From sequence record NC_052653.1: DNA of 64,000 nt. One strand, 5' to 3'. Source of the stretch: Escherichia phage vB_vPM_PD06. The notes under the pieces are model-generated. The model did not search any database. It saw nothing but the letters and a program-made list of their open reading frames with translations, and had not been told where the DNA came from. The translations under genes and the position numbers were made by a program. Positions 9,778 through 64,000 of the stretch are shown in pieces (position 1 is the first letter of the stretch; each line of letters begins with the position of its first letter).

Positions 9778-9854
9778 ATAATAAGTACACCACTGTAAGA
9801 AGCCTCAATGTGCTATTGACAGTTAACCAAGTCTACTCCTTGGATGGTGTTATT

Positions 9855-9929
9855 TGGTGCAGAGAGATGGTAACGATCCATCCTTTCTACCTTTTCAGGG
9901 TAGCACTAATCCGTCTCAGCTATCTCTGC
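9855..9929 (-). tRNA. tRNA-Phe (anticodon GAA)
   Basis: Acceptor GCAGAGA/TCTCTGC, anticodon arm CTACC-CTGAAAA-GGTAG, non-canonical T-loop ATCGTTA, CCA encoded. Confidence 0.65.
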
Positions 9930-9934
9930 AAATT

Positions 9935-10010
9935 TGGTCAGTGCGGCAGGACTCGAACCTGCGACCTGAAGCGTCCAAGGCTCCCACGCTACCAACTGCG
10001 CTACGCACTG
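9935..10010 (-). tRNA. tRNA-Pro (anticodon TGG)
   Basis: Acceptor CAGTGCG/CGCACTG, anticodon loop CTTGGAC, T-arm GCAGG-TTCGAGT-CCTGC, CCA encoded. Confidence 0.8.
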
Positions 10011-10017
10011 TAAATCT

Positions 10018-10092
10018 TGGCTGGAGATCTAGGAATCGAACCTAGTCATCACGACTTCAAAGGCCGTTGCCTTCCCACTAGGCTAATCTCCA
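10018..10092 (-). tRNA. tRNA-Gln (anticodon TTG)
   Basis: Acceptor TGGAGAT/ATCTCCA, anticodon arm ACGGC-CTTTGAA-GTCGT, T-arm CTAGG-TTCGATT-CCTAG, CCA encoded. Confidence 0.8.
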
Positions 10093-10523
10093 ATAAATTA
10101 CTTCAGTGTTACCACAAAGTGACGAACTGCTTTTCGTGCAGCAGAAGCCAGAGGCTTAGCATACTTAAGTTCATCTTTTTCCATTATAAATTCTCTTTTA
10201 AATGAAAATGCAGGACTTATTGGCATTGCCTGCGCAAGCCCTCAAGGGGAACATAGGTTTTTGGATATTTAACGACCAGGATAACCATAAACCCGTCATC
10301 ATTCACATTCAAGAGGTACACCATAAAACTGCCGGGGTCTTAAAACTATAATGATTCGCAAATCATTAATCAGACAGTTCGATGGCTCCTCGATTTTAGC
10401 TCACACTAAGGCAGTGAATCTCCAATAAACTAAAAAATCACTTAAAAAGAACCGCTAGAGTTTGAAGGAGAAAACCATGAGCGAAAAGAGAAATTTTCTC
10501 TAGCGATTCCATTTAAATAATCT

Positions 10524-10598
10524 TGGAGCGAGTAACAGGACTTGAACCTGCACCTGGAGGGTGGAAACCTCATATGCTACCATTAACACTATACCCGC
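10524..10598 (-). tRNA. tRNA-Gly (anticodon TCC)
   Basis: Acceptor GCGGGTA/TACTCGC, anticodon loop TTTCCAC, T-arm GCAGG-TTCAAGT-CCTGT, CCA encoded. Confidence 0.75.
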
Positions 10599-10653
10599 TT
10601 AACAATATTACTCTAACATACTATTAGCCCCTTTGTCAAGAGGCTTTTGATAC

Positions 10654-10983
10654 TTATTTTAAAATAGTAGATGCACCACGTCTGTTTAGATATGCAATAG
10701 TAAAGTCCAAATCACCTATTTCTTCAGGTTCCCACTGACCTTCTAAGCCATAACAAGAACAATGATATGCGTGTACTTCATAAAACAAAGATGTTTTCAT
10801 ATCATAAAAATAAACGTGAGATTCACCTTCATAATATGCACAATCATAAGTGGCAGAAAGAATTACAATGTTATCCTTATCTAACTCTACTTCATAATAT
10901 CTTTCAACATCTTCAATATCATCAAAACCATCGAAAACATTGATATTAAAATATTTCTCTAACTCTTTTTCTGTCACATACAC
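10654..10983 (-). CDS. Hypothetical protein embedded in tRNA array
   Basis: 109-aa ORF between tRNA-Gly and tRNA-Thr; Cys/Tyr-rich; no motif recognised. Confidence 0.5.
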   Translation of the reverse strand: MYVTEKELEKYFNINVFDGFDDIEDVERYYEVELDKDNIVILSATYDCAYYEGESHVYFYDMKTSLFYEVHAYHCSCYGLEGQWEPEEIGDLDFTIAYLNRRGASTILK

Positions 10984-10990
10984 TCCTTTA

Positions 10991-11065
10991 GAGTTAAAAT
11001 TGGTGCTCCCACAAGGACTCGAACCCTGATAAGTTGCTTACAAGGCAACCGTAATAGCCGTTATA
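10991..11065 (-). tRNA. tRNA-Thr (anticodon TGT)
   Basis: Acceptor GCTCCTA/TGGGAGC, anticodon arm GTTGC-CTTGTAA-GCAAC, T-loop TTCGAGT, CCA encoded. Confidence 0.8.
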
Positions 11066-11071
11066 CGATAG

Positions 11072-11148
11072 GAGCAATACTTGGACTCGGCAGGATTCGA
11101 TACCTGCAATTCCAGAAGCCTCTTGGCGACTGGGGGTTTACCTTAACT
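11072..11148 (-). tRNA. tRNA-like element, identity undetermined
   Basis: Acceptor GGACTTG/CGAGTCC pairs well; T-arm-like GCAGG-TATCGAAT-CCTGC with 8-nt loop; no canonical anticodon arm found by hand; CCA not encoded. Confidence 0.3.
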
Positions 11149-11155
11149 CTACAAG

Positions 11156-11240
11156 TCCATAATTCTGGCGATGGATCAAGGATTTGAACCTTGCTAGAAC
11201 TTTCGTTCACGGATTAACAGTCCGTCGCCCAACCACTAGG
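11156..11240 (-). tRNA. tRNA with anticodon GTT (Asn-type) and long extra arm
   Basis: Acceptor GATGGAT/ATCCATC, anticodon arm ACGGA-CTGTTAA-TCCGT, 15-nt variable region containing hairpin GAAC-GAAA-GTTC, T-loop TTCAAAT, CCA encoded. Confidence 0.55.
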
Positions 11241-11247
11241 CCAATCC

Positions 11248-11334
11248 ATCTTTAATTTGGTGCAGGTAGTTGGACTCGAACCAACGAAGCCCCGAAGGGC
11301 AAGAGATTTACAGTCTCCAGCAATTGCCGCTATG
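11248..11334 (-). tRNA. tRNA-Tyr (anticodon GTA)
   Basis: Acceptor GTAGGTA/TACCTGC, anticodon arm GGAGA-CTGTAAA-TCTCT, long variable arm, T-loop TTCGAGT, CCA encoded. Confidence 0.8.
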
Positions 11335-11339
11335 CGATA

Positions 11340-11415
11340 CCTACGTGTTTGGTACATCGTGAAGGATTCGAACCTTCGACCTTGGAGTTAAAAGCACCTT
11401 GCTCTACCAACTAAG
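11340..11415 (-). tRNA. tRNA-Lys (anticodon TTT)
   Basis: Perfect acceptor ACATCGT/ACGATGT, D-arm GCTT-AGTTGGTA-GAGC, anticodon loop CTTTTAA (stem has two mismatches), T-arm GAAGG-TTCGAAT-CCTTC, CCA encoded. Confidence 0.6.
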
Positions 11416-11559
11416 CTAACGATGTATAAATTATCTTTAAAATAGCCAGTGTTTGCGGCACTTAGCTATGAAGTATTGGGGTATCGGTAAAGTGGTTACC
11501 GCCACTTGCCGAAAGTTTACTCTGCTAAAGTAAGATTACAAGCTACATTAAAGATAACT

Positions 11560-11645
11560 TGGCGGTAGATGTAGGACTTGAACCTACACGCCGTTTCCGA
11601 CGACAGTTTAGCAAACTGTTGTGGCTACCATTTCACCAATCTACC
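11560..11645 (-). tRNA. tRNA-Ser (anticodon GCT)
   Basis: Acceptor GGTAGAT/ATCTACC, anticodon arm ACAGT-TTGCTAA-ACTGT, long variable arm, T-loop TTCAAGT, CCA encoded. Confidence 0.8.
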
Positions 11646-11653
11646 GTTCTTAA

Positions 11654-11806
11654 TTATTCAAAACAACCGGAATCTTTTTGTTCTGCTTTTACCATACGAA
11701 TATTTTTACCATCTTCAGATTGTTGAAGATTAGAATACTCATAAACAACTTTATTATCTACAATCTTAACTCCGGTAACAACCTGTCCAATAGTTTTATA
11801 ATTCAT
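11654..11806 (-). CDS. Small hypothetical protein
   Basis: About 50-aa ORF from ATG (MNYKTIG...) with AGGAG upstream; the longer track ORF would overlap tRNA-Ser. Confidence 0.35.
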   Translation of the reverse strand: MNYKTIGQVVTGVKIVDNKVVYEYSNLQQSEDGKNIRMVKAEQKDSGCFE

Positions 11807-11824
11807 AAAGCTCCTAGTTGAATT

Positions 11825-11914
11825 TGGAGGAAGATAATGGAGTCGAACCATCACCGTATCGCTACAATGGGCCAGGGTTCAAACCTGGTTGCGCACCGCT
11901 GCGCCCTACCTTCC
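11825..11914 (-). tRNA. tRNA-Ser (anticodon TGA)
   Basis: Acceptor GGAAGGT/ATCTTCC, anticodon arm CCAGG-TTTGAAC-CCTGG, long variable arm, T-arm GATGG-TTCGACT-CCATT, CCA encoded. Confidence 0.7.
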
Positions 11915-11975
11915 CGTTATCATACTTTAAATCTAACATAAAACTATCTTGCTTGTCAAGTAGTTTTTAAAACTT

Positions 11976-12057
11976 TTTGGTCGGGGTGACAGGATTCGAA
12001 CCTGCATACTCCAATTACTCGGTTAACGCCTGATTAGAAGTCAGGTGAGATACACCC
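11976..12057 (-). tRNA. Atypical tRNA-like gene, possibly Arg (TCT)
   Basis: Perfect acceptor CGGGGTG/CACCCCG, T-arm GCAGG-TTCGAAT-CCTGT, CCA encoded, hairpin CCTGA-CTTCTAA-TCAGG; no room for a normal D-arm. Confidence 0.4.
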
Positions 12058-12239
12058 CGTTTTCACAGTAACTATAACAAAAAACTAAGTGAATGTCAAG
12101 ATATTTTTACTAAAATTATTATTTAAATTGAAGCCTAGTTATGGAATCGAACCATATTTCGTATTTAGTTAGACAAAGCGGTCTAACATATTTTTCAGGC
12201 TTTGATGGCCTCGGAATTACCAAATACCCTACTAGGCGT

Positions 12240-12325
12240 TGGTGCAAGTGGAGGGATTCGAACCCTCAATCATTTAAGCGTTGCGTTTTAAGCACAATGT
12301 GTATCACCAATTCCACCACACTTGC
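12240..12325 (-). tRNA. tRNA-Leu (anticodon TAA)
   Basis: Perfect acceptor GCAAGTG/CACTTGC, anticodon arm TTGTG-CTTAAAA-CGCAA, long variable arm, T-arm GAGGG-TTCGAAT-CCCTC, CCA encoded. Confidence 0.75.
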
Positions 12326-12356
12326 ATATAGGAGATGCATAGCATCTCCTTTTAAA

Positions 12357-12432
12357 TGGTGGTTCCCCAGGGTTACAATCCCTGCCCTCGACACTTATGA
12401 GGTGTGCGCTCTCGTCAGTGAGCTATGGAACC
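12357..12432 (-). tRNA. tRNA with CAT anticodon (Met or Ile2), non-canonical T-loop
   Basis: D-arm GCTC-ACTGACGA-GAGC, anticodon loop CTCATAA, T-arm CAGGG-ATTGTAA-CCCTG, acceptor GGTTCCA/GGGAACC, CCA encoded. Confidence 0.65.
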
Positions 12433-12439
12433 TTGAATA

Positions 12440-12706
12440 TTAAGCATACTGGGTCATTTCACCAGCTTCGCGTTTCTCCAGAAGAACTGTAATCAAAGCA
12501 ATAGCTGCTTCTTCTTCGTGAGGAAGCCCCATTTCATCCAGAAGAGCAAGGAAGTCAATTACCAAACTTTCTGTTTTAAGGCTAACGCTACCATTTTCGT
12601 TTTCAGTAAGAACTGATTCAGGTTCAAAAATAAAGATTGCTCCACCTTTATTATCAATCAATACGTGCTTCTCAATCAGTTCTTTACCATAAGTACGTTC
12701 TGTCAT
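12440..12706 (-). CDS. Hypothetical protein
   Basis: 88-aa ORF directly upstream of tRNA array on same strand. Confidence 0.5.
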   Translation of the reverse strand: MTERTYGKELIEKHVLIDNKGGAIFIFEPESVLTENENGSVSLKTESLVIDFLALLDEMGLPHEEEAAIALITVLLEKREAGEMTQYA

Positions 12707-12886
12707 AGTTTTCTCCTTTTTGTTTAACTTGGGCTTATCTTAGCAAATAACTAGCTATGTTGTCAACTAGTTTTTACAATATTTTTTCTTGATCTGTAAC
12801 CTAGTGTATAACCGCATACAAAGGATACAATAGCAATAAAAACAGATAAGCCAAAAATAATTTCTGTAGACATACTGTTTCCTTAA

Positions 12887-13108
12887 TTATGTGAAATCTA
12901 ATTCCTCCTCTGGTGCTGTGTAATTTAGAAGAAGATCAGTTACACTTTGATGTTGATAAACCCTTTCGGGACTGTCATCGAATGCCAAACTTGTACAAAT
13001 CGAGCATAGATCCGACTCTTGAATATTACCATTCCTGTCTCTACGGGAATGATTAGTCAAGTGTCTGTTACAGGCTCGGCAACGAAAATAAAAATTATGT
13101 TGTTTCAT
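12887..13108 (-). CDS. Small zinc-ribbon-like protein
   Basis: 73 aa with paired CxxC motifs (CRACN ... CSIC). Confidence 0.45.
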   Translation of the reverse strand: MKQHNFYFRCRACNRHLTNHSRRDRNGNIQESDLCSICTSLAFDDSPERVYQHQSVTDLLLNYTAPEEELDFT

Positions 13109-13179
13109 AAATCCTTCGTGAAGCCCATCCAGGGCAGTTGTAGGCTCTCCTTACCTTAATCTTATCACGAAGTTTTTAT

Positions 13180-14913
13180 TTAGTCAACCTGGATGGTTCC
13201 CATAGTACGAAGAACCTCTACATCAACACGGTTGCGGATATCAGTGAATGTTTCATCACGACCTTCTACTTGTGGTGTAATAACCTTACCATTCTTGAAG
13301 ATAACTTGTAACTCATTGTCTTCATCCTGGATATCTTTAAAAGAAAGATTATCTACAAGAGAAAGATTACCATTGGTATCATTAACAACCTTAATAAAAC
13401 CTTTTGCAGAGCGTTTACCAGGATCAGTTTTAGGCTCCTTACTTACCAAAATTTCGTGTTCACCGATGATACTACCTGTTGCTTTAACAGCAAAACCAAA
13501 AGTATCTCGTGTATTGAACTGATAAGTATAACTACCAACACCAAATACAATATTGGAAGCTGCAAAACCTTTCTTCTTCAGTCGGCGTAAGATCTCGTGT
13601 TCTCGTTCAACAGTAATAGAATCACCATAAATCATACCGATATGCTGATCAAGAACCTTGTAGCCTTTTCGGTTGATAGTACCACCAAACACTTCCCAAA
13701 GGATTTGAATAGAACCTACTGCTTCACAATAAGGAATCTCATAAGTTTCATCAATACAGTCAGCAACACTGCAATCCTGAAGAACATTGTAATACTTATT
13801 AACATCAGCCAAATGAACTACTTCAGTGGCTGTCGCAATACCATTATTTAAGAGGTCTTGATAGTTATCAAAAGATTCAACATTGTATCCTGCAACAACT
13901 TTAACCGGATCTCCTGAATCTGGACGAATAACAAGACGACCATTTCGTGACATAATGGAATCTTTCAATTCTACCAGAATGCGAGTCAATACAGCCCAAT
14001 AGTCATAAGAGTCTGCTACATATGAACAAAAACCTTCTGGAACAATTTCTTCGATATAACGACGAAGAAACTCTTTTTCTGCTACATAACGAAGCCCATC
14101 TACATCATCTTTAAGATGTGGGAAATGTTTCTTCAGATCTTCAACAATAGATCCAATGTTAGTCGTTGCTACTGAATGTTCTGTTGCCGGAATCGAACCT
14201 GCAACAAACTGATCATAATCAATACCATAATAGTCATGCACAGTTTCAATAGCCAGAATATTATCTGTTCCTGTGAACGATGCCAAGTGAGCGATACCAC
14301 TCTTATAACCATCTTCGATATTACTTAAACCACGTAGGCTAAAATCATGACACTGGAAGTTAACGTGATCAATATTATCACACGTTGCCATCGCATATGC
14401 CATAGCGATACGCTTATACTGAAAAGCTGCTGTGGCATTAGTCATTGTCTTCCAAGTTTCATCTGACAACAGTGTTTCCACATAGTTAGTTAACCAAAAG
14501 AATTTTTCTAAAGTATTATGCACAGTAAACACAGGAACACCAATAGGACACAAAACACCTTCTGGCAGAGATCGAACTTCCAGCGGAAGATAACCTAAAT
14601 CGTGCAATTCTCCCCAACATTCCGCAGAAGGAGCAGAAGCACCTAACGCATTTTTAGACATACGATAAAATTTATTTACTGCTGCACTACGAGACATTTT
14701 AAAGAAGCTATCCCACATAGTTACAAGAGCATCAGTGACTGCTCGACGAATACCTAAAACAATCACACCACGTGCTTCACGATCTGCATAGTGTGCAAAG
14801 TTTTTATCATTACGAGGAGTTAAATTAGAGAAAATAAGTTTTGTATTTTGGTTGTACATCTGCTTGTGACCAGGTTTGTACCAATCAGTAGCAAAAGGTG
14901 CAAAAATATTCAT
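13180..14913 (-). CDS. nadV: Nicotinamide phosphoribosyltransferase (NAMPT)
   Basis: 577 aa; N-terminal MNIFAPFATDWYKPGHKQMY and overall length typical of NAMPT family. Confidence 0.85.
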   Translation of the reverse strand: MNIFAPFATDWYKPGHKQMYNQNTKLIFSNLTPRNDKNFAHYADREARGVIVLGIRRAVTDALVTMWDSFFKMSRSAAVNKFYRMSKNALGASAPSAECWGELHDLGYLPLEVRSLPEGVLCPIGVPVFTVHNTLEKFFWLTNYVETLLSDETWKTMTNATAAFQYKRIAMAYAMATCDNIDHVNFQCHDFSLRGLSNIEDGYKSGIAHLASFTGTDNILAIETVHDYYGIDYDQFVAGSIPATEHSVATTNIGSIVEDLKKHFPHLKDDVDGLRYVAEKEFLRRYIEEIVPEGFCSYVADSYDYWAVLTRILVELKDSIMSRNGRLVIRPDSGDPVKVVAGYNVESFDNYQDLLNNGIATATEVVHLADVNKYYNVLQDCSVADCIDETYEIPYCEAVGSIQILWEVFGGTINRKGYKVLDQHIGMIYGDSITVEREHEILRRLKKKGFAASNIVFGVGSYTYQFNTRDTFGFAVKATGSIIGEHEILVSKEPKTDPGKRSAKGFIKVVNDTNGNLSLVDNLSFKDIQDEDNELQVIFKNGKVITPQVEGRDETFTDIRNRVDVEVLRTMGTIQVD

Positions 14914-14984
14914 AGTTATGTCTCCTTGTTTGTTAATGTGGGAGTATCTTACTAAGCATACTCCCTATTGTCAACACTTATTAT

Positions 14985-15878
14985 TTAAAAATTCCACACG
15001 TATGGAGATACAATTTGTTGTTGCAAATCTGACTGATTCTTAACAAGAACACCAGAATCTTCTTGGATGTTATCTTCCCACACATTAAGAGAATGAATGC
15101 AGTCAAAGTGCTCACTTAACTCTTTAAGACCTTTAGAAAAGATACCGTGTGTAACATATAGCTCAATCTTACCTGCGTTACGAGCACGTAGCACTTTAGC
15201 CAATTCGATAAAAGTTCTACCACCATCACAGATATCATCTACGATCATCAGGTTACGCTTATTGAAATCCTGTACAGAAATGTCTGTACGAACAATAGCA
15301 CCTGTTGCGGTATCTCTAACCTTCTCTGCACAGAACACATCTAAAGACATTTTCTTAGATAATTTAAATATTTTCTTAAGAGCACCACCATCAGGGCTAA
15401 CAAGAGCAAAATTCTCCATACGTAACTTCCACTTTAAAGTTTCGTAAGCAATCTCTTCTTGAGGCATTACACAGAGTCTGTCAAACACTGCTGGAGTAAC
15501 ATCACTATGCGGATCAGCAACGATAACACGTGAGAAATTTAATGAATTAATTATAGAAGCAAATGCTTTAACTCCGAATGCTTCCCCAGGCTCACACACT
15601 CTGTCTTGTCGTGCATACGGCACATACAACATGAGTAAATCAACACAATATGGTTTATGATATAGCATATTGTCCAATGCATTCTTAGTCATAACCAAAG
15701 TCATCAAGTCTTTAGCAGATCTTACTTCTAAAGTGAGTAAGATTCTGTCTGTAGCATGATTGAAACCTGATAGATTCGTATCTAATTGAACATGTTGTTC
15801 TCCACCAGAGAATGTAAACACTTTAACGTCTACATCAGTAACATAACAGTCAACACCATGCAGAATACTAACTTTCAT
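14985..15878 (-). CDS. prs: Ribose-phosphate pyrophosphokinase (PRPP synthetase)-like
   Basis: YARQDR motif, SPDGG, and PRPP-binding loop MIVDDICDGGRT. Confidence 0.8.
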   Translation of the reverse strand: MKVSILHGVDCYVTDVDVKVFTFSGGEQHVQLDTNLSGFNHATDRILLTLEVRSAKDLMTLVMTKNALDNMLYHKPYCVDLLMLYVPYARQDRVCEPGEAFGVKAFASIINSLNFSRVIVADPHSDVTPAVFDRLCVMPQEEIAYETLKWKLRMENFALVSPDGGALKKIFKLSKKMSLDVFCAEKVRDTATGAIVRTDISVQDFNKRNLMIVDDICDGGRTFIELAKVLRARNAGKIELYVTHGIFSKGLKELSEHFDCIHSLNVWEDNIQEDSGVLVKNQSDLQQQIVSPYVWNF

Positions 15879-15879
15879 T

Positions 15880-16298
15880 CTTTATCTCCTTAGTTGCGTT
15901 AGGACTTTATGTTCTCTACTCTACATACAGATAGATCTAAAGTCAATAGATATTTATTATTTAATTAATAATAAAATTAATAAATAATTAATAAATAATC
16001 TATTGTTAGTATAGAGCATGTATGTTAGTATTATAGATATAACATAGTGCTATATGTAGACTACTCAGTTGTCTGTTAGATCATGTATCACAAGATTAGA
16101 TAACACCCCCTCGCTGCGCTCGGCGTTTTTCGGGGGTTAGGGTAGCATACTTTTTTGCGTTTGTCAACACCTTTTTGGATTATTTTTAAGTACAACCTGA
16201 ACCTCCTAAAAACGATTGTAACGAGTTTTACTGTGAGGTAAGGTGATTGCATATCTTAGAGGCTATTAGCTCGTTACAGAGCCATACAGGAGGGAATA
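15880..16298. promoter_or_regulatory. Divergent intergenic control region
   Basis: 419-bp non-coding gap between diverging gene blocks; 50-bp pure A/T tract with reiterated TAATTAATAA units (15951-16000) and a GC-rich hairpin near 16105-16135. Confidence 0.45.
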
Positions 16299-31159: not shown

Positions 31160-33421
31160 GTGACTCAGTATCTAAGCAAATCTATCCGTTATGTAACAAA
31201 AACAAACGGCAAGAAAGAAGAATTTAATCCAGAAAAACTTCGTAAATGGTCAGAGTTTGCTGCTGGTAAATTAAATTGGTCTGAAATTGAACTTGAAGCT
31301 GTTAAACGTTGTTACGACGGTGTGCCTACTCGTGATTTACATAAAGCTATGATAGCAGCATGTATTGATAAGAAAGATCAGGCATACAGTGATATGGCAG
31401 GTCGGTTACTTCTTGGTATGATTTATAAACAGGCTCATGGGGGATATCACAATATCCCCTCCCTCCTGGATTTCTACAATATGTCTGTAAGTAAAGGCTA
31501 TTGGGGAAAAATGGATTATACAGAAGAAGAAATTATTGAGATTGGTAAGATTGTCAATCACGATAAAAACCTAACTTATGGTTATTCCGTACTGCGCCAG
31601 ATGGTTGATAAGTATCTTGTGAAAGATGCGATCAATGATGTTGTTTTTGAATCACCACAGTTTTTATTTATTGGTGTAGCAATGAAGGTAATGGAAATCC
31701 AACCAAAAGATCGCAGAGTAGAAGACATTAAACGTCTATATACCTACGTAAGTGATCTTAAGATTAATTTACCATCGCCTTATTTAACAACTTTGCGTAC
31801 TAAGATTAAAGGTAGTGCTTCTTGTTGTCTGTTTAGAGCAGATGATACAGCAGAATCTTTAGCAATTGCTAACTATCTTGCGCATGAATATACATTGAAT
31901 AATGCAGGTATTGGTGTTAACCTTCAAACCCGTGCCACAGGACAAGGTGTTAAGAACAACCGTATCGTTCACGGTGGTCTTTTACCATATCTGAAATGGA
32001 TGGAGACAAGTGTTGGAGCATCAAAACAAGCAAGTCGTGGTGGAAGTGCAACAGTAACGTTTACAATACTAGAACCTGATTTTGAAGATCTGGTACGTTT
32101 GAAAAACCCAACTACTGTTAGTGAAAAACGAGTAGATAAACTTGATTACTCTATCGTAGTAAACAATGCTTTCCTGCGCCGTGCAGCAAAAGGTAAAGAT
32201 TGGATGCTAGTTAGTTATGACGAAGCACCAGAACTCTATGAGGCGCTTTATAAAAGCGAGGAAGAGTTTGAAGAAGTATATGAAAAAGTTAGTCGCAAAC
32301 GTATTAAGAAGAAGTTTGTAAAAGCACGAGATCTTCTGGCAGAAATTATTACACAAAGAGCAGAGACAGGACGTATTTATATGTTCTTTGCGGATAATGC
32401 TAATAGGCATACTCCGTTTAAGGATGTTATTTATCAGTCAAACTTGTGCCAAGAAATTTTCTTACCTACGAAAGCATTTCACAATATGACTGATCTTTTC
32501 ACAGGTGAGAATACAGAAGATCAAGAATTGGCATTATGCTTCCTGTCTTCTATTGTAGCTGGTCGTGTTACACCAGAAGAATATGAAGATGTTGCATATT
32601 ATACAGTTCTAACTATTGATAATGTTATTGAAACAATGCAGTATCCGTTTAAACATAACGAAATCACTGCTAAAGCACGTAGGTCTATCGGTGTAGGTAT
32701 TACAAACCTTGCACATTATCTGGCAAGTAATTTTGTTACTTATTCAGATCCTTACGGCAAAAAACTAATTCACGAATTAGCAGAAAGGCATTATTACTGG
32801 TTAGCAAGAGCTTCTCTTCGTTTGGCAAAAGAGAAGGGTAATGCACAATGGATGCATAAAACCAAATGGCCTGAAGGATGGTTGCCTATTGACACCTACG
32901 CTAAAGCTGTAGACGATATTGGCAATTTTAAACTTAAAATGGATTGGGAAGGTTTACGACAAGATATCATTGCACAAGGTGGTATCCGAAATAGTGTATT
33001 AGCAGCTATTGCTCCAAATGAGTCCAGTAGTCTTGTAAGTAATACGACTAACTCTGTGTATCCTGTACGTGATACTATAGTTTATAAACAAAGCCAAAAA
33101 GGTAATGTTCTGTTTATTGTGCCAGATTACGATAAACTAAAAGATATTTACCAATCGGCTTGGGATACACCAGATAAAGATATGGCTGAAGCATATGGAC
33201 TGTTGACTAAATTCTTAGATCAAGGTGCATCATGTGATAAGTGGATTGACTATTCTAAGATGGAAGGTGGTCGTTTATCCATTAAATCAGAAATGCAATA
33301 TATTCTTCAGTTTGCAAAACTTGGTGGTAAATCTTTGTACTATCTAAATAGCAGAACAAAATCGGCAACCTCACTCGCTCAAGAGGATGAAGAATCCGGT
33401 TGTGAGTCTTGTAAGATGTAA
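31160..33421 (+). CDS. nrdA: Ribonucleotide reductase large subunit (class I, NrdA-type)
   Basis: Active-site NLCQEI, C-terminal CESCKM redox pair, 753 aa; GTG start with GGAGAGG upstream. Confidence 0.9.
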   Translation: MTQYLSKSIRYVTKTNGKKEEFNPEKLRKWSEFAAGKLNWSEIELEAVKRCYDGVPTRDLHKAMIAACIDKKDQAYSDMAGRLLLGMIYKQAHGGYHNIPSLLDFYNMSVSKGYWGKMDYTEEEIIEIGKIVNHDKNLTYGYSVLRQMVDKYLVKDAINDVVFESPQFLFIGVAMKVMEIQPKDRRVEDIKRLYTYVSDLKINLPSPYLTTLRTKIKGSASCCLFRADDTAESLAIANYLAHEYTLNNAGIGVNLQTRATGQGVKNNRIVHGGLLPYLKWMETSVGASKQASRGGSATVTFTILEPDFEDLVRLKNPTTVSEKRVDKLDYSIVVNNAFLRRAAKGKDWMLVSYDEAPELYEALYKSEEEFEEVYEKVSRKRIKKKFVKARDLLAEIITQRAETGRIYMFFADNANRHTPFKDVIYQSNLCQEIFLPTKAFHNMTDLFTGENTEDQELALCFLSSIVAGRVTPEEYEDVAYYTVLTIDNVIETMQYPFKHNEITAKARRSIGVGITNLAHYLASNFVTYSDPYGKKLIHELAERHYYWLARASLRLAKEKGNAQWMHKTKWPEGWLPIDTYAKAVDDIGNFKLKMDWEGLRQDIIAQGGIRNSVLAAIAPNESSSLVSNTTNSVYPVRDTIVYKQSQKGNVLFIVPDYDKLKDIYQSAWDTPDKDMAEAYGLLTKFLDQGASCDKWIDYSKMEGGRLSIKSEMQYILQFAKLGGKSLYYLNSRTKSATSLAQEDEESGCESCKM

Positions 33422-33461: not shown

Positions 33462-33797
33462 ATGCCTACATTAGTTGTATTACCTGGGGCAACACCACAA
33501 AGACGCTGGGGAAATTATACACTGGTAGATAGTAAAGATTTTACATTCGATTGGTGTTGTCATTATATTGCAGGTTTTCAATTTTCCAGTGTTGAAATAT
33601 GGGCTTCCAATGATCCCATAGCTACCTGGTATGCTTTAACCAGAGCAAGGTATGAGGGAGAGGTTACTATACTACTCACAAAGAGTGTATGGGACGCATT
33701 AGAGAAGGCTTACATAGAGAATGGTATGGAGAGAAAACACATTGATACAATAAAAGCAATGTGTGATATCGTGGAGGATTTAAATGGCAGCGATTAA
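33462..33797 (+). CDS. Hypothetical protein
   Basis: ATG at 33462 with AGGAGG upstream; about 111 aa. Confidence 0.4.
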   Translation: MPTLVVLPGATPQRRWGNYTLVDSKDFTFDWCCHYIAGFQFSSVEIWASNDPIATWYALTRARYEGEVTILLTKSVWDALEKAYIENGMERKHIDTIKAMCDIVEDLNGSD

Positions 33798-34869
33798 TTT
33801 ATACAACGACACTTACAAAGAAGGTTTCTACCCTGTATTTTTGGGAGAACAGTTAGGTATTTTTGATTCTATTAATGTAACATACCCAGAAATGCATCGT
33901 CTGTACAAACTACAAAAACAGCAAGATTGGGATGAAAACGAAGTAAACTTAGATCAGACACGAAAAGATTTCGTAGCTTGTTCTAAAAGCAACTACGATG
34001 TTATGATCAAAAACCTATCCTTCCAATGGGAAAATGATTCACTTGCTAAATCAATCATCACTTTGTTTGCACCATTTTTAAGCAACAACGAAGCATGTGC
34101 AATGATGATGAAGCAATCAGAAATGGAAGTTCTACACGCTTTGACATATTCTGAAATTATTCGTCAGTGTATCCCTAATCCAAATGAAGTTATCGATCAG
34201 ATTATGGAGAACGAAAGAATCTTCCAGAGGATGGGTATAGTTGAAGAGGTAATGAGTGATCTGGCAGAGGCAGGACATAAATATGCTCTAGGTCTGATTG
34301 AGAAGGATGATAACCTTCGTCTACTGATCCTGAAAGGAATGATTGCACTTATCGGTCTGGAAGGCATTCAATTCATATCCTCTTTTGCTGCAACATTTGC
34401 CTTAGCAGAGCAGCAACTGTTTGTAGGTGCAGCTAAACTCATTCAAAAAATTATGTTGGATGAACTATTGCACGTTAAAATGGATTATGCTATTATTGAT
34501 GCACTGCTGAAAGATCCTGTTTGGAGAAAAGTATACGAAGATAATATCGACGTTCTGACAGAAATTCTTGACACGGTAGTTGGACAAGAGGAAGATTGGT
34601 GTGACTATCTGTTTAGTGAAGGAAGGGTTATCGTTGGTGGTAACGCAGAGTTGTTCAAACTTTGGGTTTACTTCAATGCTGCGCCTATCTATCGCAGACT
34701 GAAAATGAAACACAAATTCCGTGCACCGAAGAAAAGTCCACTGCCTTGGATGGATGTTTGGTTAAATCCAGATCAAATTCAAGCAGCAGCACAGGAGATC
34801 CAAATTACAGCTTACAAACTGAATTCAGCAAATAAAGATGTAAGTGATGACGAGGAGTTAGACTTCTAA
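33784..34869 (+). CDS. nrdB: Ribonucleotide reductase small subunit (NrdB-type)
   Basis: Di-iron ligand segments EMEVLHALTYSE and GLEGIQFISSFA; acidic C-terminal tail DDEELDF. Confidence 0.85.
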   Translation: MAAINLYNDTYKEGFYPVFLGEQLGIFDSINVTYPEMHRLYKLQKQQDWDENEVNLDQTRKDFVACSKSNYDVMIKNLSFQWENDSLAKSIITLFAPFLSNNEACAMMMKQSEMEVLHALTYSEIIRQCIPNPNEVIDQIMENERIFQRMGIVEEVMSDLAEAGHKYALGLIEKDDNLRLLILKGMIALIGLEGIQFISSFAATFALAEQQLFVGAAKLIQKIMLDELLHVKMDYAIIDALLKDPVWRKVYEDNIDVLTEILDTVVGQEEDWCDYLFSEGRVIVGGNAELFKLWVYFNAAPIYRRLKMKHKFRAPKKSPLPWMDVWLNPDQIQAAAQEIQITAYKLNSANKDVSDDEELDF

Positions 34870-62659: not shown

Positions 62660-62839
62660 TCCTTATTGTTCAAGAGTAAAAGGAATGATCTCACCATAGC
62701 TGTATTGCATGGCATTCACTTCTGCTTCTGCACGTTGTGCTAGTTCTAATGTTGCACAGATCTTATAAGGAACAGTGCTGCATTGGCTCCAGCCTGGGGT
62801 ATTCTTTGTTACTAAGTACACAGTAGTTTCTTTATTCAT
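62660..62839 (-). CDS. Small hypothetical protein
   Basis: 59-aa ORF from ATG with GGAGAGG upstream; not in track. Confidence 0.3.
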
Positions 62840-63293
62840 AACTTTCCTCTCCTAGTTCATCATACCATTTCAAAGCATCTTTTGGAAGCATACCAAAATC
62901 TTCTTTCAGTTCTTTTTCAATCTCTTCTTTCAGTTCATTCAACACTTGCAGTTGGCGTATTTTCTTCCGTAACAAAGTTTCCCGCTCATTGTTGCTTGGT
63001 GTTACTTCATTTGCTGCTATCATCACATATCCGGTCGGAGAGCAAGGAAGATAATCATCAATATTTTCTAAAGCATAACGAAAATTGGAATCCAAGAAGT
63101 TTACATGCACTTGATCACATCCAAACAACTTGGCACGAAATACTTCATAACGAGTTTCAGATAAGATATGTCGCACACAGACAATACCTACATCATTTTG
63201 CACTGCACAGGTTACATCTAACAAACTTGAGTGTTCTTTGACATAATCTGCAACACATTGCACATGTGCTTCCAGTATAGATAGTTGTCTCAT
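62832..63293 (-). CDS. Hypothetical protein, first gene of minus-strand early array
   Basis: 153-aa ORF; N-terminal domain paralogous to 56547-56798; acidic coiled-coil-like C-terminus. Confidence 0.5.
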   Translation of the reverse strand: MRQLSILEAHVQCVADYVKEHSSLLDVTCAVQNDVGIVCVRHILSETRYEVFRAKLFGCDQVHVNFLDSNFRYALENIDDYLPCSPTGYVMIAANEVTPSNNERETLLRKKIRQLQVLNELKEEIEKELKEDFGMLPKDALKWYDELGEESYE

Positions 63294-63360
63294 TTTCTAC
63301 CTCCTCATAATGCTAACATTTTATTGAAAATGGAAACGCGTCGTGCGCGGTATGCAAACC

Positions 63361-63388
63361 ACTATACAGACATTTTTATTCAATGCAA
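63361..63388 (-). promoter_or_regulatory. Sigma70-like promoter candidate for minus-strand early array
   Basis: In minus sense TTGCAT, 16-nt spacer, TATAGT, about 70 nt upstream of ATG at 63293. Confidence 0.4.
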
Positions 63389-63720
63389 GCATTATTTGCA
63401 TCTTCGATTCTGTCTTTCACCCGCTGCAATAATGAAGGATTTAGTATAGGAATTAGTATAGGTATTCCCTATCAATTATTCTATATATACCTATTATTTT
63501 TAACACACCCTTTGTACATAATATAGACAAATAAATATCTATGCCACAAAAATTTTCCGGTATACCCGATTTATTTCGACACACCCCGTTTTCATAAGCG
63601 TAAAGTCAATAATATCAATAACTTGCCGCAAAATACTGCTCGCTTGCGAGAGGTGCTTAACGCGATTTTCAGCGCCCCCCGATTTCTGCCGACCGTCCCC
63701 CTCAAATATCAATGAGAATT

Positions 63721-63734
63721 ATTATCATTTGCAT
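63721..63734. repeat. 14-mer ATTATCATTTGCAT, copy 1
   Basis: Exact 14-nt match to 63916-63929; related ATTATTTGCAT at 63391-63401. Confidence 0.6.
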
Positions 63735-63915
63735 TATCATTCAATGACTTATAAGATTTTTGATTATTTTCTGAGCAAGAAAGGCATTACTCACAACAAA
63801 ACAGATAAATTCTAAGTAAATCAATGGCTTGGCATTTCTAAACATCTATATACACCTTGCCAAATGAAATGATCCTGCGTGAAATAGTGCCACCCGTGGA
63901 AGATAGCTGATAATG

Positions 63916-63929
63916 ATTATCATTTGCAT
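63916..63929. repeat. 14-mer ATTATCATTTGCAT, copy 2
   Basis: Exact 14-nt match to 63721-63734. Confidence 0.6.
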
Positions 63930-64000
63930 ATTTTCTATACTATAAAACGCCCTAAAAATCAAGATAATTCTGATTTATTGCGCTTTTAAGAAAGTAGGCT

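What the first reader, a model, noticed from the sequence alone, without database searches (positions are those of the whole stretch)
63300..64000. 700-bp non-coding region with repeated ATTATCATTTGCAT motif
No credible ORF is present. The 14-mer ATTATCATTTGCAT occurs twice exactly (63721, 63916) with a related copy near 63391, alongside promoter-like elements and a GC-richer patch (63640-63700). This may be the early promoter/operator region, a replication origin or a region near a genome terminus.
Basis: seen in the sequence. Interest (0 to 1): 0.4.

Follow-up and report, generated by a model that had tools for sequence, protein, structure and literature searches.

The report
Phage genome end with Fur-like boxes
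This 700-bp gene-free stretch is the left physical end of a phi92-type E. coli phage genome, an already known 343-bp terminal repeat plus the leader of the first gene, and the repeated 14-mer is part of two conserved sites that look just like binding sites for the host iron regulator Fur, which has not been reported for such phages.

Summary
ATTATCATTTGCAT occurs exactly twice (63721, 63916) and nowhere else, in the window or in a complete 148.9-kb relative. The "third copy" is at chance level. The GC-rich patch is real and nothing codes.

The window is a phi92-like myovirus, and base 64000 is phi92 genome position 1. Window 63658-64000 is the known 343-bp direct terminal repeat (DTR); 63294-63657 is the leader of the first gene. 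The GC patch straddles the inner DTR boundary. Both boundaries share a conserved core, (G/T)GCT|YAAC, the likely terminase cut sites.

The 14-mer is two hexamers (ATTATC ATTTGC) of Fur-box arrays. 63908-63922 is a perfect 7-1-7 Fur box (17/19 to the E. coli consensus, better than the entC operator). 63708-63744 is a six-hexamer array. Such sites are conserved in three phage clades despite diverged flanks. They cluster in three gene-free regions within 11 kb of the terminus.

Best reading: a known type of DTR terminus carrying probable host-Fur sites of unknown role. The main rival is a phage-encoded initiator or repressor. No strong promoter overlaps the boxes. Fur binding is inferred, not shown.

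The parts
62832..63293 (-). First gene of the genome (homologue of phi92 gp001), transcribed away from the terminus.
   Evidence: ORF listed. phi92 annotation. Matches phrog_14944 of unknown function; no Pfam domain.
63300..63304 (-). Ribosome-binding site GGAGG of the first gene.
   Evidence: Sequence. The homologous RBS is annotated in phi92.
63361..63388 (-). Weak candidate sigma-70 promoter for the first gene: TTGCAT, 16 nt, TATAGT.
   Evidence: 7.4 bits in my matrix at the homologous ESCO9 position. Present only in relatives that share this leader. Inference only.
63294..63657 (.). Unique, non-repeated leader between the terminal repeat and the first gene.
   Evidence: Mapping to phi92 positions 344-698. 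No CDS in curated records.
63466..63501 (.). Block conserved across clades (CCTATCAATTATTCTATATATACC..TTATTTTT); function unknown.
   Evidence: Three-clade footprint.
63640..63699 (.). GC-rich patch (61.7% GC) straddling the inner DTR boundary. It includes the small palindrome CTCGCTTGCGAG (63639-63650) and the third copy of a C-rich repeat (CCGATTT..CGAC..CCCC; copies at about 63489, 63565 and 63678).
   Evidence: Composition. Repeat family. No significant DNA folding.
63653..63661 (.). Inner DTR boundary core GTGCT|TAAC. The inferred right-end cut lies between 63657 and 63658.
   Evidence: phi92 DTR mapping. The block is conserved in 9 genomes. It is the only G[GT]GCT[CT]AAC in the window. 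It predicted the WPEC4 repeat length to within 1 nt.
63658..64000 (.). Direct terminal repeat (343 bp), left copy. Base 64000 is the physical left end of the genome.
   Evidence: Homology to the phi92 DTR-L annotation. The phi92 left and right copies are identical. A UAB_1 annotation exists. Literature reports 342-bp DTRs in the subfamily.
63708..63744 (.). Fur-like site A1: hexamer array ATCAAT GAGAAT T ATTATC ATTTGC ATTATC ATTCAA. The 7-1-7 core TGAGAATTATTATCA at 63713-63727 has 1 mismatch.
   Evidence: It is the top-scoring position for this layout in the whole window, 27/36 against 10.5 +/- 2.9. Conserved in three clades with permuted hexamers.
63721..63734 (+).
63908..63927 (.). Fur-like site A2: a perfect 7-1-7 box TGATAATGATTATCA (63908-63922). 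The 19-mer GATAATGATTATCATTTGC (63909-63927) matches the consensus at 17/19.
   Evidence: It resembles the E. coli entC-fepB Fur operator. Conserved in the Phapecoctavirus clade; a shifted equivalent exists in the Klebsiella-phage clade.
63916..63929 (+).
63954..63972 (.). Conserved block AAAAATCAAGATAATTCT about 30-45 nt from the end; function unknown, possibly terminase recognition.
   Evidence: Footprint.
63983..64000 (.). Conserved terminal block TTTTAAGAAAGTAGGCT. The outer cut lies after GCT; in concatemers the next bases are CAACA.
   Evidence: GCTCAACA is invariant in 9 genomes. Independent linear records begin exactly here.

Best explanation
The region is the left physical end of a phi92-like (Stephanstirmvirinae, Justusliebigvirus) virulent E. 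coli myovirus. Window 63658-64000 is the left copy of a short, non-permuted 343-bp direct terminal repeat (DTR). Window 63294-63657 is the unique leader of the first gene. In replicating concatemers one DTR copy joins two genomes. The terminase most likely cuts at the two boundaries, which share the core (G/T)GCT|YAAC, and the repeat is duplicated during packaging, as in T7-type 'short DTR' phages. That last step is inferred by analogy. The GC-rich patch is the conserved sequence around the inner cut. The repeated 14-mer is not a promoter. It is the hexamer pair ATTATC-ATTTGC within two arrays of GATAAT/ATTATC hexamers, which is the architecture of E. coli Fur boxes. The most likely binder is host Fur-Fe2+. 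Fur would also occupy a second pair of sites about 0.9 kb beyond the terminus and a four-box array about 11 kb away. This would tie the terminal and early part of the genome to host iron status, or titrate Fur. Shown here: the identity and coordinates of the DTR, the conservation of the boundary motif, and the sequence match, enrichment, clustering and cross-clade conservation of the Fur-like boxes. Inferred: that Fur binds, and any physiological consequence.
For: Terminus and DTR. The last 2 kb of the window equals the reverse complement of phi92 positions 1-1994 (96.4% identity), ending exactly at position 1. The phi92 record annotates DTR-L at 1-343 and DTR-R. The two copies are identical, and the repeat maps to window 63658-64000. 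UAB_1 also annotates a 343-bp left repeat. BME3 has a 342-bp DTR by PhageTerm, and DTRs are described as general in the subfamily. Two Phapecoctavirus linear records start exactly after the homologous GTGCT. The motif predicted a 329-bp repeat in WPEC4, and the record carries an exact 328-bp terminal repeat. Both boundary blocks are conserved across three clades. Fur-like boxes. The 19-bp consensus GATAATGATWATCATTATC hits 63909-63927 with 2 mismatches; it is the only hit at <=3 mismatches in 64 kb, against 0.03 expected. The 7-1-7 pattern gives 0 and 1 mismatches only at the two DTR sites. The consensus was confirmed in PMC11353095. Array A1 is the best position for its hexamer layout in the window, 27/36 against 10.5 +/- 2.9, and the 6-nt register is kept while hexamers are permuted between clades. 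Each of 10 relatives has 2-3 sites in its gene-free stretch, a count reached by 0 of 200 shuffles. Genome-wide there are 4 sites at <=1 mismatch against 0.20 expected, all within 11.1 kb (P about 1.5e-3). All three clusters are conserved in Phapecoctavirus and in a Klebsiella phage. An unbiased BLAST of A2 against E. coli genomes returns the entC-fepB Fur operator, which matches the consensus less well than the phage site. The ten adjacent genes show no recognisable DNA-binding domain, and the phage has no Fur homologue. The phage encodes a di-iron class I ribonucleotide reductase.
Against: No Fur binding or iron response was measured; everything about Fur rests on sequence. Classical Fur boxes overlap the -35/-10 of a promoter, and no strong sigma-70 promoter overlaps A1 or A2 on either strand. 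The best candidates score about 8 bits and are not conserved. No iron-related gene is adjacent. The A1 conserved block extends a little beyond the hexamer array (flanking TCAATGA repeats). The four-box cluster next to AT-rich repeats looks like an iteron-type origin, which would fit a phage-encoded binder. The more distant rV5-like phage LL12 has only a degenerate version in its DTR. The second DTR copy of this particular phage is outside the window. The original paper on the phi92 termini could not be read.
Confidence: 0.55

Rival explanations
1. The boxes are binding sites for a phage-encoded protein, either a replication initiator or an early-gene repressor. The four-box array 11 kb away would be the origin, laid out like oriLambda with palindromic iterons next to AT-rich repeats. 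The DTR and spacer pairs would be secondary sites. The likeness to the Fur box would be incidental, or deliberate mimicry.
For: The tandem array of four palindromes is spaced 23-29 bp apart, beside three AT-rich repeats of about 70 bp and a conserved GC-rich element. The boxes head or punctuate one long block of small co-directional genes. No promoter overlaps the DTR boxes. Other annotators called gp001 and gp005 putative DNA-binding or regulatory proteins.
Against: The 7-nt half-site TGA(T/G)AAT and its spacing equal those of Fur. One site is a perfect 7-1-7 box and matches the consensus better than the host entC operator, which is unlikely by coincidence. Sites of that quality would be expected to bind the abundant host Fur regardless (established knowledge of Fur, my inference). 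Pfam and PHROGs find no DNA-binding domain in the ten neighbouring genes.
Confidence: 0.25
2. The repeated boxes are packaging signals. The small terminase subunit would bind the two DTR copies to position the cuts, as repeated sites do in lambda cosB.
For: Both exact 14-mers lie inside the DTR, 64 and 259 nt from the inner cut. Both are conserved together with the boundary blocks.
Against: The same boxes occur in two further clusters 0.9 and 11 kb away from any cut site. The blocks best conserved next to the cuts are different sequences (GTGCT|TAACGCGA, AAATCAAGA..TTCT, TTTAAGAGA..GCT|CAACA). The Fur match would remain unexplained.
Confidence: 0.08
3. The motif has no function. It would be an AT-rich chance resemblance, or the relic of a small internal duplication in fast-evolving terminal DNA.
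For: The region is AT-rich (23-30% GC around the boxes). The two copies sit in a 37-nt repeat of 76% identity.
Against: Dinucleotide-preserving shuffles do not reproduce the sites. The boxes are conserved islands in flanks too diverged for BLAST to align. The hexamer register survives hexamer permutation.
Confidence: 0.04

Closest known systems
Left direct terminal repeat of phage phi92 (NC_023693, positions 1-343) and the DTRs of other Stephanstirmvirinae (UAB_1, BME3, WPEC4)
   Same: Homologous sequence at about 95% identity, the same 343-bp length, the same position before the first gene, and the same end nucleotide (35 of hit list).
   Different: None of substance; the window is another member. 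The published records annotate only the repeat, not the shared boundary core or the Fur-like boxes.
T7/T3-type short direct terminal repeats ('DTR short' class of PhageTerm)
   Same: A short, non-permuted repeat of a few hundred bp in non-coding DNA at fixed ends, with one copy per concatemer junction (the junction is seen in the collapsed assemblies).
   Different: The sequence and the phage family are unrelated. The large terminase here has a T4-type N-terminal domain. The duplication mechanism is assumed by analogy and was not tested.
E. coli Fur boxes, e.g. the entC-fepB divergent operator
   Same: A 19-bp palindrome, 7-1-7 inverted repeats and arrays of GATAAT/ATTATC hexamers. A2 shares ATAATGATTATCATTT..ATATTTTC with the entC operator.
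   Different: Host boxes overlap the -35/-10 of iron-regulated promoters. Here no convincing promoter or iron gene is adjacent, and the sites lie in a virulent phage's terminal repeat.
Fur boxes carried by temperate phages (upstream of sitABCD on lambdoid phages, PMC6969025; stx1, from my own knowledge)
   Same: A host Fur operator carried on phage DNA.
   Different: Those boxes regulate a cargo (moron) gene from a prophage. The sites here are in non-coding terminal and origin-like DNA of a strictly lytic phage, in three clusters.
Iteron-type origins such as oriLambda (four palindromic O-protein sites beside an AT-rich region; my own knowledge)
   Same: The related four-box array beside AT-rich repeats, outside the window, has this layout.
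   Different: The stretch under study has only two boxes, 195 bp apart, with no AT-rich unwinding element between them. No initiator gene was identified.

Membership tests
Short direct terminal repeat (non-permuted DTR) genome end | The same sequence is present at both ends of the linear virion genome. | tested here: met
   Met in homologues: phi92 DTR-L equals DTR-R over 343 bp, and WPEC4 has an exact 328-bp terminal repeat. For the window's own phage the right end is not in the window, so this rests on 95-98% homology.
Short direct terminal repeat (non-permuted DTR) genome end | Fixed, sequence-specific termini. | tested here: met
   phi92, PHB05, VEcB, UAB_1, W22, PD114, 10C3 and WPEC4 records all begin at the homologous nucleotide after (G/T)GCT. 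The boundary blocks are conserved in three clades.
Short direct terminal repeat (non-permuted DTR) genome end | Read pile-up or doubled coverage at the termini in virion DNA sequencing. | not testable with these tools
   No reads are available. The literature reports a 342-bp DTR by PhageTerm for BME3.
E. coli Fur box (Fur operator) | Match to the 19-bp consensus GATAATGATAATCATTATC. | tested here: met
   63909-63927 matches 17/19 and 63714-63732 matches 15/19. The bona fide entC operator matches 15/19.
E. coli Fur box (Fur operator) | 7-1-7 inverted repeat and arrays of hexamers in 6-nt register. | tested here: met
   TGATAATGATTATCA is a perfect match and TGAGAATTATTATCA has 1 mismatch. The six-hexamer array scores 27/36, the best position in the window.
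E. coli Fur box (Fur operator) | Overlap with the -35/-10 region of a Fur-repressed promoter. | tested here: not met
   No conserved or strong sigma-70 candidate overlaps A1 or A2 on either strand. My matrix is approximate and phage-specific promoters are not covered, so 'not met' applies to canonical promoters only.
E. coli Fur box (Fur operator) | Binding by Fur-Fe2+ and iron-responsive regulation. | not testable with these tools
   This needs gel shift or footprinting, a Fur titration assay, ChIP, and infections of delta-fur and iron-limited cells.
Iteron-type replication origin | Three or more closely spaced initiator sites beside an AT-rich unwinding element. | tested here: not met
   The studied stretch has two boxes 195 bp apart. 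The layout is met only by the related array outside the window.
Structured non-coding RNA (Rfam families) | Match to a curated covariance model. | tested here: not met
   The only match is a chance-level snoRNA hit (21 bits against a gathering score of 40; E = 0.29).

The most novel reading that the evidence does not exclude
A strictly virulent myovirus has placed about ten high-affinity host Fur operators in its terminal repeat, in the adjacent spacer and in an origin-like region at the head of its early-gene block. Either early development, replication or packaging is gated by host iron status. Or the amplifying phage DNA acts as a multicopy Fur decoy that de-represses host iron uptake, feeding the phage's own di-iron ribonucleotide reductase.
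Probability: 0.3. Interest if true: 0.7.

Novelty: new member of a known kind. Interest (0 to 1): 0.42.

Why it matters
The terminus itself is ordinary. It gives exact ends for this genome and a compact candidate cut-site motif for a therapeutically popular, broad-host-range phage group, which helps with assembly, annotation and engineering. The Fur-like boxes are the interesting part. If host Fur really binds them, this would be a case of a lytic phage reading, or manipulating, the host iron regulon through non-coding DNA. Iron limitation is the normal state in the gut and in infection, where these phages are meant to work. It is cheap to test with gel shifts, a Fur titration assay and infections of delta-fur cells.

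Tried and rejected
- Rfam scan of 62800-64000: only a chance-level hit.
- Consensus promoter and terminator scans, plus my own sigma-70 matrix on both strands: no strong or conserved promoter and no terminator in the region. I therefore dropped the idea that the 14-mer is an early promoter element.
- DNA folding of the boundary, A1 and A2: no folding beyond shuffled sequence.
- Extended similarity between the two DTR boundaries: not above background over 34 nt. Only the core of about 7-9 nt is shared.
- Pfam and PHROGs on the ten adjacent genes: no DNA-binding domain.
- rV5-like phage LL12 as a distant test: no good Fur box and different boundaries, so the pattern does not extend to Vequintavirinae.
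- IMG/VR scan with the inner-boundary motif: 17 of 20 loci were unrelated chance matches and only 3 were useful.
- Literature searches for Fur boxes in lytic, phi92-like or Phapecoctavirus phages: nothing found.
- The original phi92 genome paper (PMC3457257) is not held.
- GC skew follows gene orientation and says nothing about an origin.

Full report
**Observation.** The sequence is as described. ATTATCATTTGCAT occurs exactly at 63721 and 63916 and nowhere else in the window. The proposed third copy (63388, AGCATTATTTGCAT) has 3 mismatches. Matches of that quality are at chance level (20 found, 17.2 expected). The two exact copies sit in a 37-nt repeat of 76% identity. The GC-rich patch is real: 63640-63699 is 61.7% GC. 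Promoter-like hits are not enriched (8 against 5.1 +/- 2.2). Nothing codes. ORFs are at most 57 aa, and close relatives differ by frame-breaking indels. Curated records annotate no CDS, and Rfam finds nothing.

**What the window is.** It carries 15 tRNA genes, a T4-type large terminase, portal and capsid genes, NrdA/NrdB, a ligase and NAD-salvage genes. Its last 2 kb is 96-98% identical to phi92-like E. coli myoviruses (Stephanstirmvirinae, Justusliebigvirus). It aligns to the reverse complement of phi92 positions 1-1994, so window base 64000 is phi92 genome position 1.

**The terminus.** The phi92 record annotates a left direct terminal repeat at 1-343 and a right one at 148270-148612. The two are identical, and the repeat maps to window 63658-64000. 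Salmonella phage UAB_1 carries the same annotation. BME3 has a 342-bp DTR by PhageTerm, and DTRs are described as general in the subfamily. So 63658-64000 is the left DTR, and 63294-63657 is the unique leader of the first gene (62832-63293, minus strand, RBS at 63300-63304). In assemblies that run through the junction, the gene-free stretch is 1.5-1.8 kb and lies between co-directional genes.

**Boundaries.** I aligned nine junctions from three clades: Justusliebigvirus, Phapecoctavirus and a Klebsiella-phage group. Conserved islands stand out in otherwise diverged DNA. Two of them are the DTR boundaries themselves.
- The inner boundary is GTGCT|TAACGCGAWTTT (window 63653-63670).
- The outer boundary is TTTAAGAGA..(G/T)GCT|CAACA (window 63983-64000 and beyond).

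Both share the core (G/T)GCT|YAAC in the same register. Over a 34-nt frame the similarity is not above background, so I claim only the short core. The motif has predictive value. Two Phapecoctavirus linear records begin exactly after the homologous GTGCT. From the motif I predicted a 329-bp repeat for WPEC4, and its record carries an exact 328-bp terminal repeat. I infer that these are the terminase cut sites. Duplication of the repeat during packaging is assumed by analogy with T7-type short-DTR phages.

**The 14-mer.** Read with its left flank, copy 2 is TGATAATGATTATCA (63908-63922). This is a perfect match to the 7-1-7 Fur box. The 19-mer at 63909-63927 matches the E. coli Fur consensus at 17/19. 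It is the only hit at <=3 mismatches in 64 kb, against 0.03 expected. The consensus was confirmed in PMC11353095. Copy 1 lies in a six-hexamer array, ATCAAT GAGAAT T ATTATC ATTTGC ATTATC ATTCAA (63708-63744). This array is the best position for that layout in the whole window on either strand (27/36 against 10.5 +/- 2.9).

**Conservation and distribution.**
- Each of ten relatives has 2-3 Fur-like sites in its gene-free stretch, a count reached by 0 of 200 shuffles.
- Phapecoctavirus and the Klebsiella-type phages have terminal DNA too diverged for BLAST to align. They still keep two such sites inside their DTRs.
- In A1 the individual hexamers are swapped, gained or lost between clades while the 6-nt register is kept.
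- A whole-genome scan of a complete relative (VEcB, 148,885 bp) finds the 14-mer only at the two DTR sites. It finds 4 Fur boxes at <=1 mismatch against 0.20 expected, all within 11.1 kb (P about 1.5e-3).
- The boxes form three clusters: the DTR pair, a pair 58 bp apart about 0.9 kb beyond the terminus, and a tandem array of four boxes in another gene-free stretch (phi92 136551-138014). That stretch lies at the head of the small-gene block that runs across the terminus into gene 001.
- All three clusters are present in the other two clades.

**Calibration against the host.** An unbiased BLAST of the A2 neighbourhood against 5,426 E. coli genomes returned the entC-fepB intergenic region. From my own knowledge this is the classical Fur-repressed enterobactin promoter pair. 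Its entC operator matches the consensus less well than the phage site does.

**What argues against a simple Fur-operator reading.** No strong or conserved sigma-70 promoter overlaps A1 or A2. The best candidates score about 8 bits, while candidates in the tRNA/early region of the same window reach 12-15 bits. No iron gene is adjacent, and the neighbouring genes are small ORFs of unknown function. The four-box array beside AT-rich repeats has the look of an iteron origin, which keeps a phage-encoded binder in play. The phage has no Fur homologue. The more distant rV5-like phage LL12 has a 459-bp DTR with only a degenerate version of A1.

**Mechanism I commit to.**
- Probability about 0.97: this is the left genome end with the known short DTR.
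- Probability about 0.7-0.8: sites of this quality bind host Fur-Fe2+ in vitro. This is an inference from the known specificity of Fur.
- Probability about 0.5: the binding matters in infection. It could act as an iron-dependent brake or architectural element on the terminal, early and origin regions, or as a Fur decoy.

The phage-encoded di-iron ribonucleotide reductase gives a rationale for the decoy idea, but that idea is speculation.

**Novelty.** The DTR is already known. Within what could be searched, the literature describes Fur boxes only on temperate-phage cargo genes. The shared boundary core and the conserved Fur-like arrays appear to be new descriptions of known kinds of element in an unusual place.

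Noticed in passing
outside the window: L017 30900-31130 (VEcB 80900-81130); phi92 136551-138014; KP2025 L044 3680-4090; ukendt L045 5480-5870: A second large gene-free stretch holds three AT-rich repeats of about 70 bp (TTATTTAAAGTTTTT...AAAATGAAAAGTTCAA) and then four tandem Fur-like palindromes (AATGAGAATCATT). A GC-rich element conserved in three clades follows (GGTGTTTGTCTCGCG..CCCGT..CCCCTCGCCAT). It could be a replication origin or a structured RNA.
   Followed up: partly
outside the window: L002 5790-5866 (ESCO9); phi92 L003 1805-1881; KP2025 L006 3589-3665: A pair of Fur-like boxes sits exactly 58 bp apart, about 250 bp downstream of the terminator of the last gene. A conserved TATTGCATA lies between them. 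The spacing is kept in the Klebsiella phage.
   Followed up: partly
outside the window, just beyond base 64000: L009 3055-3141, L008 3247-3277, phi92 L003 (reverse complement) 344-374: The DNA immediately after the outer cut carries 1 to 5 copies of YAACAAATA(G), which repeats the right half of the cut site. Copy number varies between close relatives (ESCO9 1, phi92 2, VEcB 3, pEC-M2929 5). This could be terminase recognition or slippage. It is specific to Justusliebigvirus.
   Followed up: partly
L035 (IMG/VR Klebsiella-type relative), +346 and +412 from the inner boundary: There are two copies of the outer boundary motif 66 bp apart (GGTGCT|CGAC and AGTGCT|CAAC), suggesting a duplicated cut site.
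   Followed up: no
window 63436-63459: A 12-nt tandem duplication (AGGATTTAGTAT AGGAATTAGTAT) is present in the window but as a single copy in phi92 and ESCO9.
   Followed up: partly
window 63613-63625: TATCAATAACTTG fits the IHF consensus WATCAANNNNTTR, 33-45 nt from the inner cut. It is kept in the Klebsiella-phage clade (TATCAATATGTTG) but not in ukendt. Read by eye and not tested statistically.
   Followed up: no
window 63466-63501 and 63954-63972: Two further blocks are conserved across clades (CCTATCAATTATTCTATATATACC..TTATTTTT and AAAAATCAAGATAATTCT). They have no assigned function.
   Followed up: no
window 9377-12432: A cluster of 15 tRNA genes lies on the minus strand.
   Followed up: no
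window 4078-16167, minus strand: A dozen near-consensus sigma-70 promoter candidates (TTGACA, 17-18 nt, TAnnnT; 12-15 bits) have A/T-rich upstream tracts. They are concentrated around the tRNA and NAD-salvage region, in contrast to the promoter-poor terminal region.
   Followed up: partly
window 31160-33421 and 33784-34869; 13180-14913 and 14985-15878: The phage encodes class I ribonucleotide reductase subunits NrdA and NrdB (the di-iron subunit). It also encodes a NAPRTase and a PRPP-synthetase-like protein (NAD salvage).
   Followed up: partly
L042 2501-2522 (E. coli SY033 chromosome): There is a 22-nt exact match to TGATAATGATTATCATTTGCAT in an IS-disrupted prophage remnant next to an Rz spanin gene. 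It may be the Fur box of a lost prophage cargo operon.
   Followed up: no
hit lists: Several records labelled Campylobacter, Pseudomonas or Acinetobacter phages are near-identical to these E. coli phages. The host labels are probably wrong, or the samples were contaminated.
   Followed up: no
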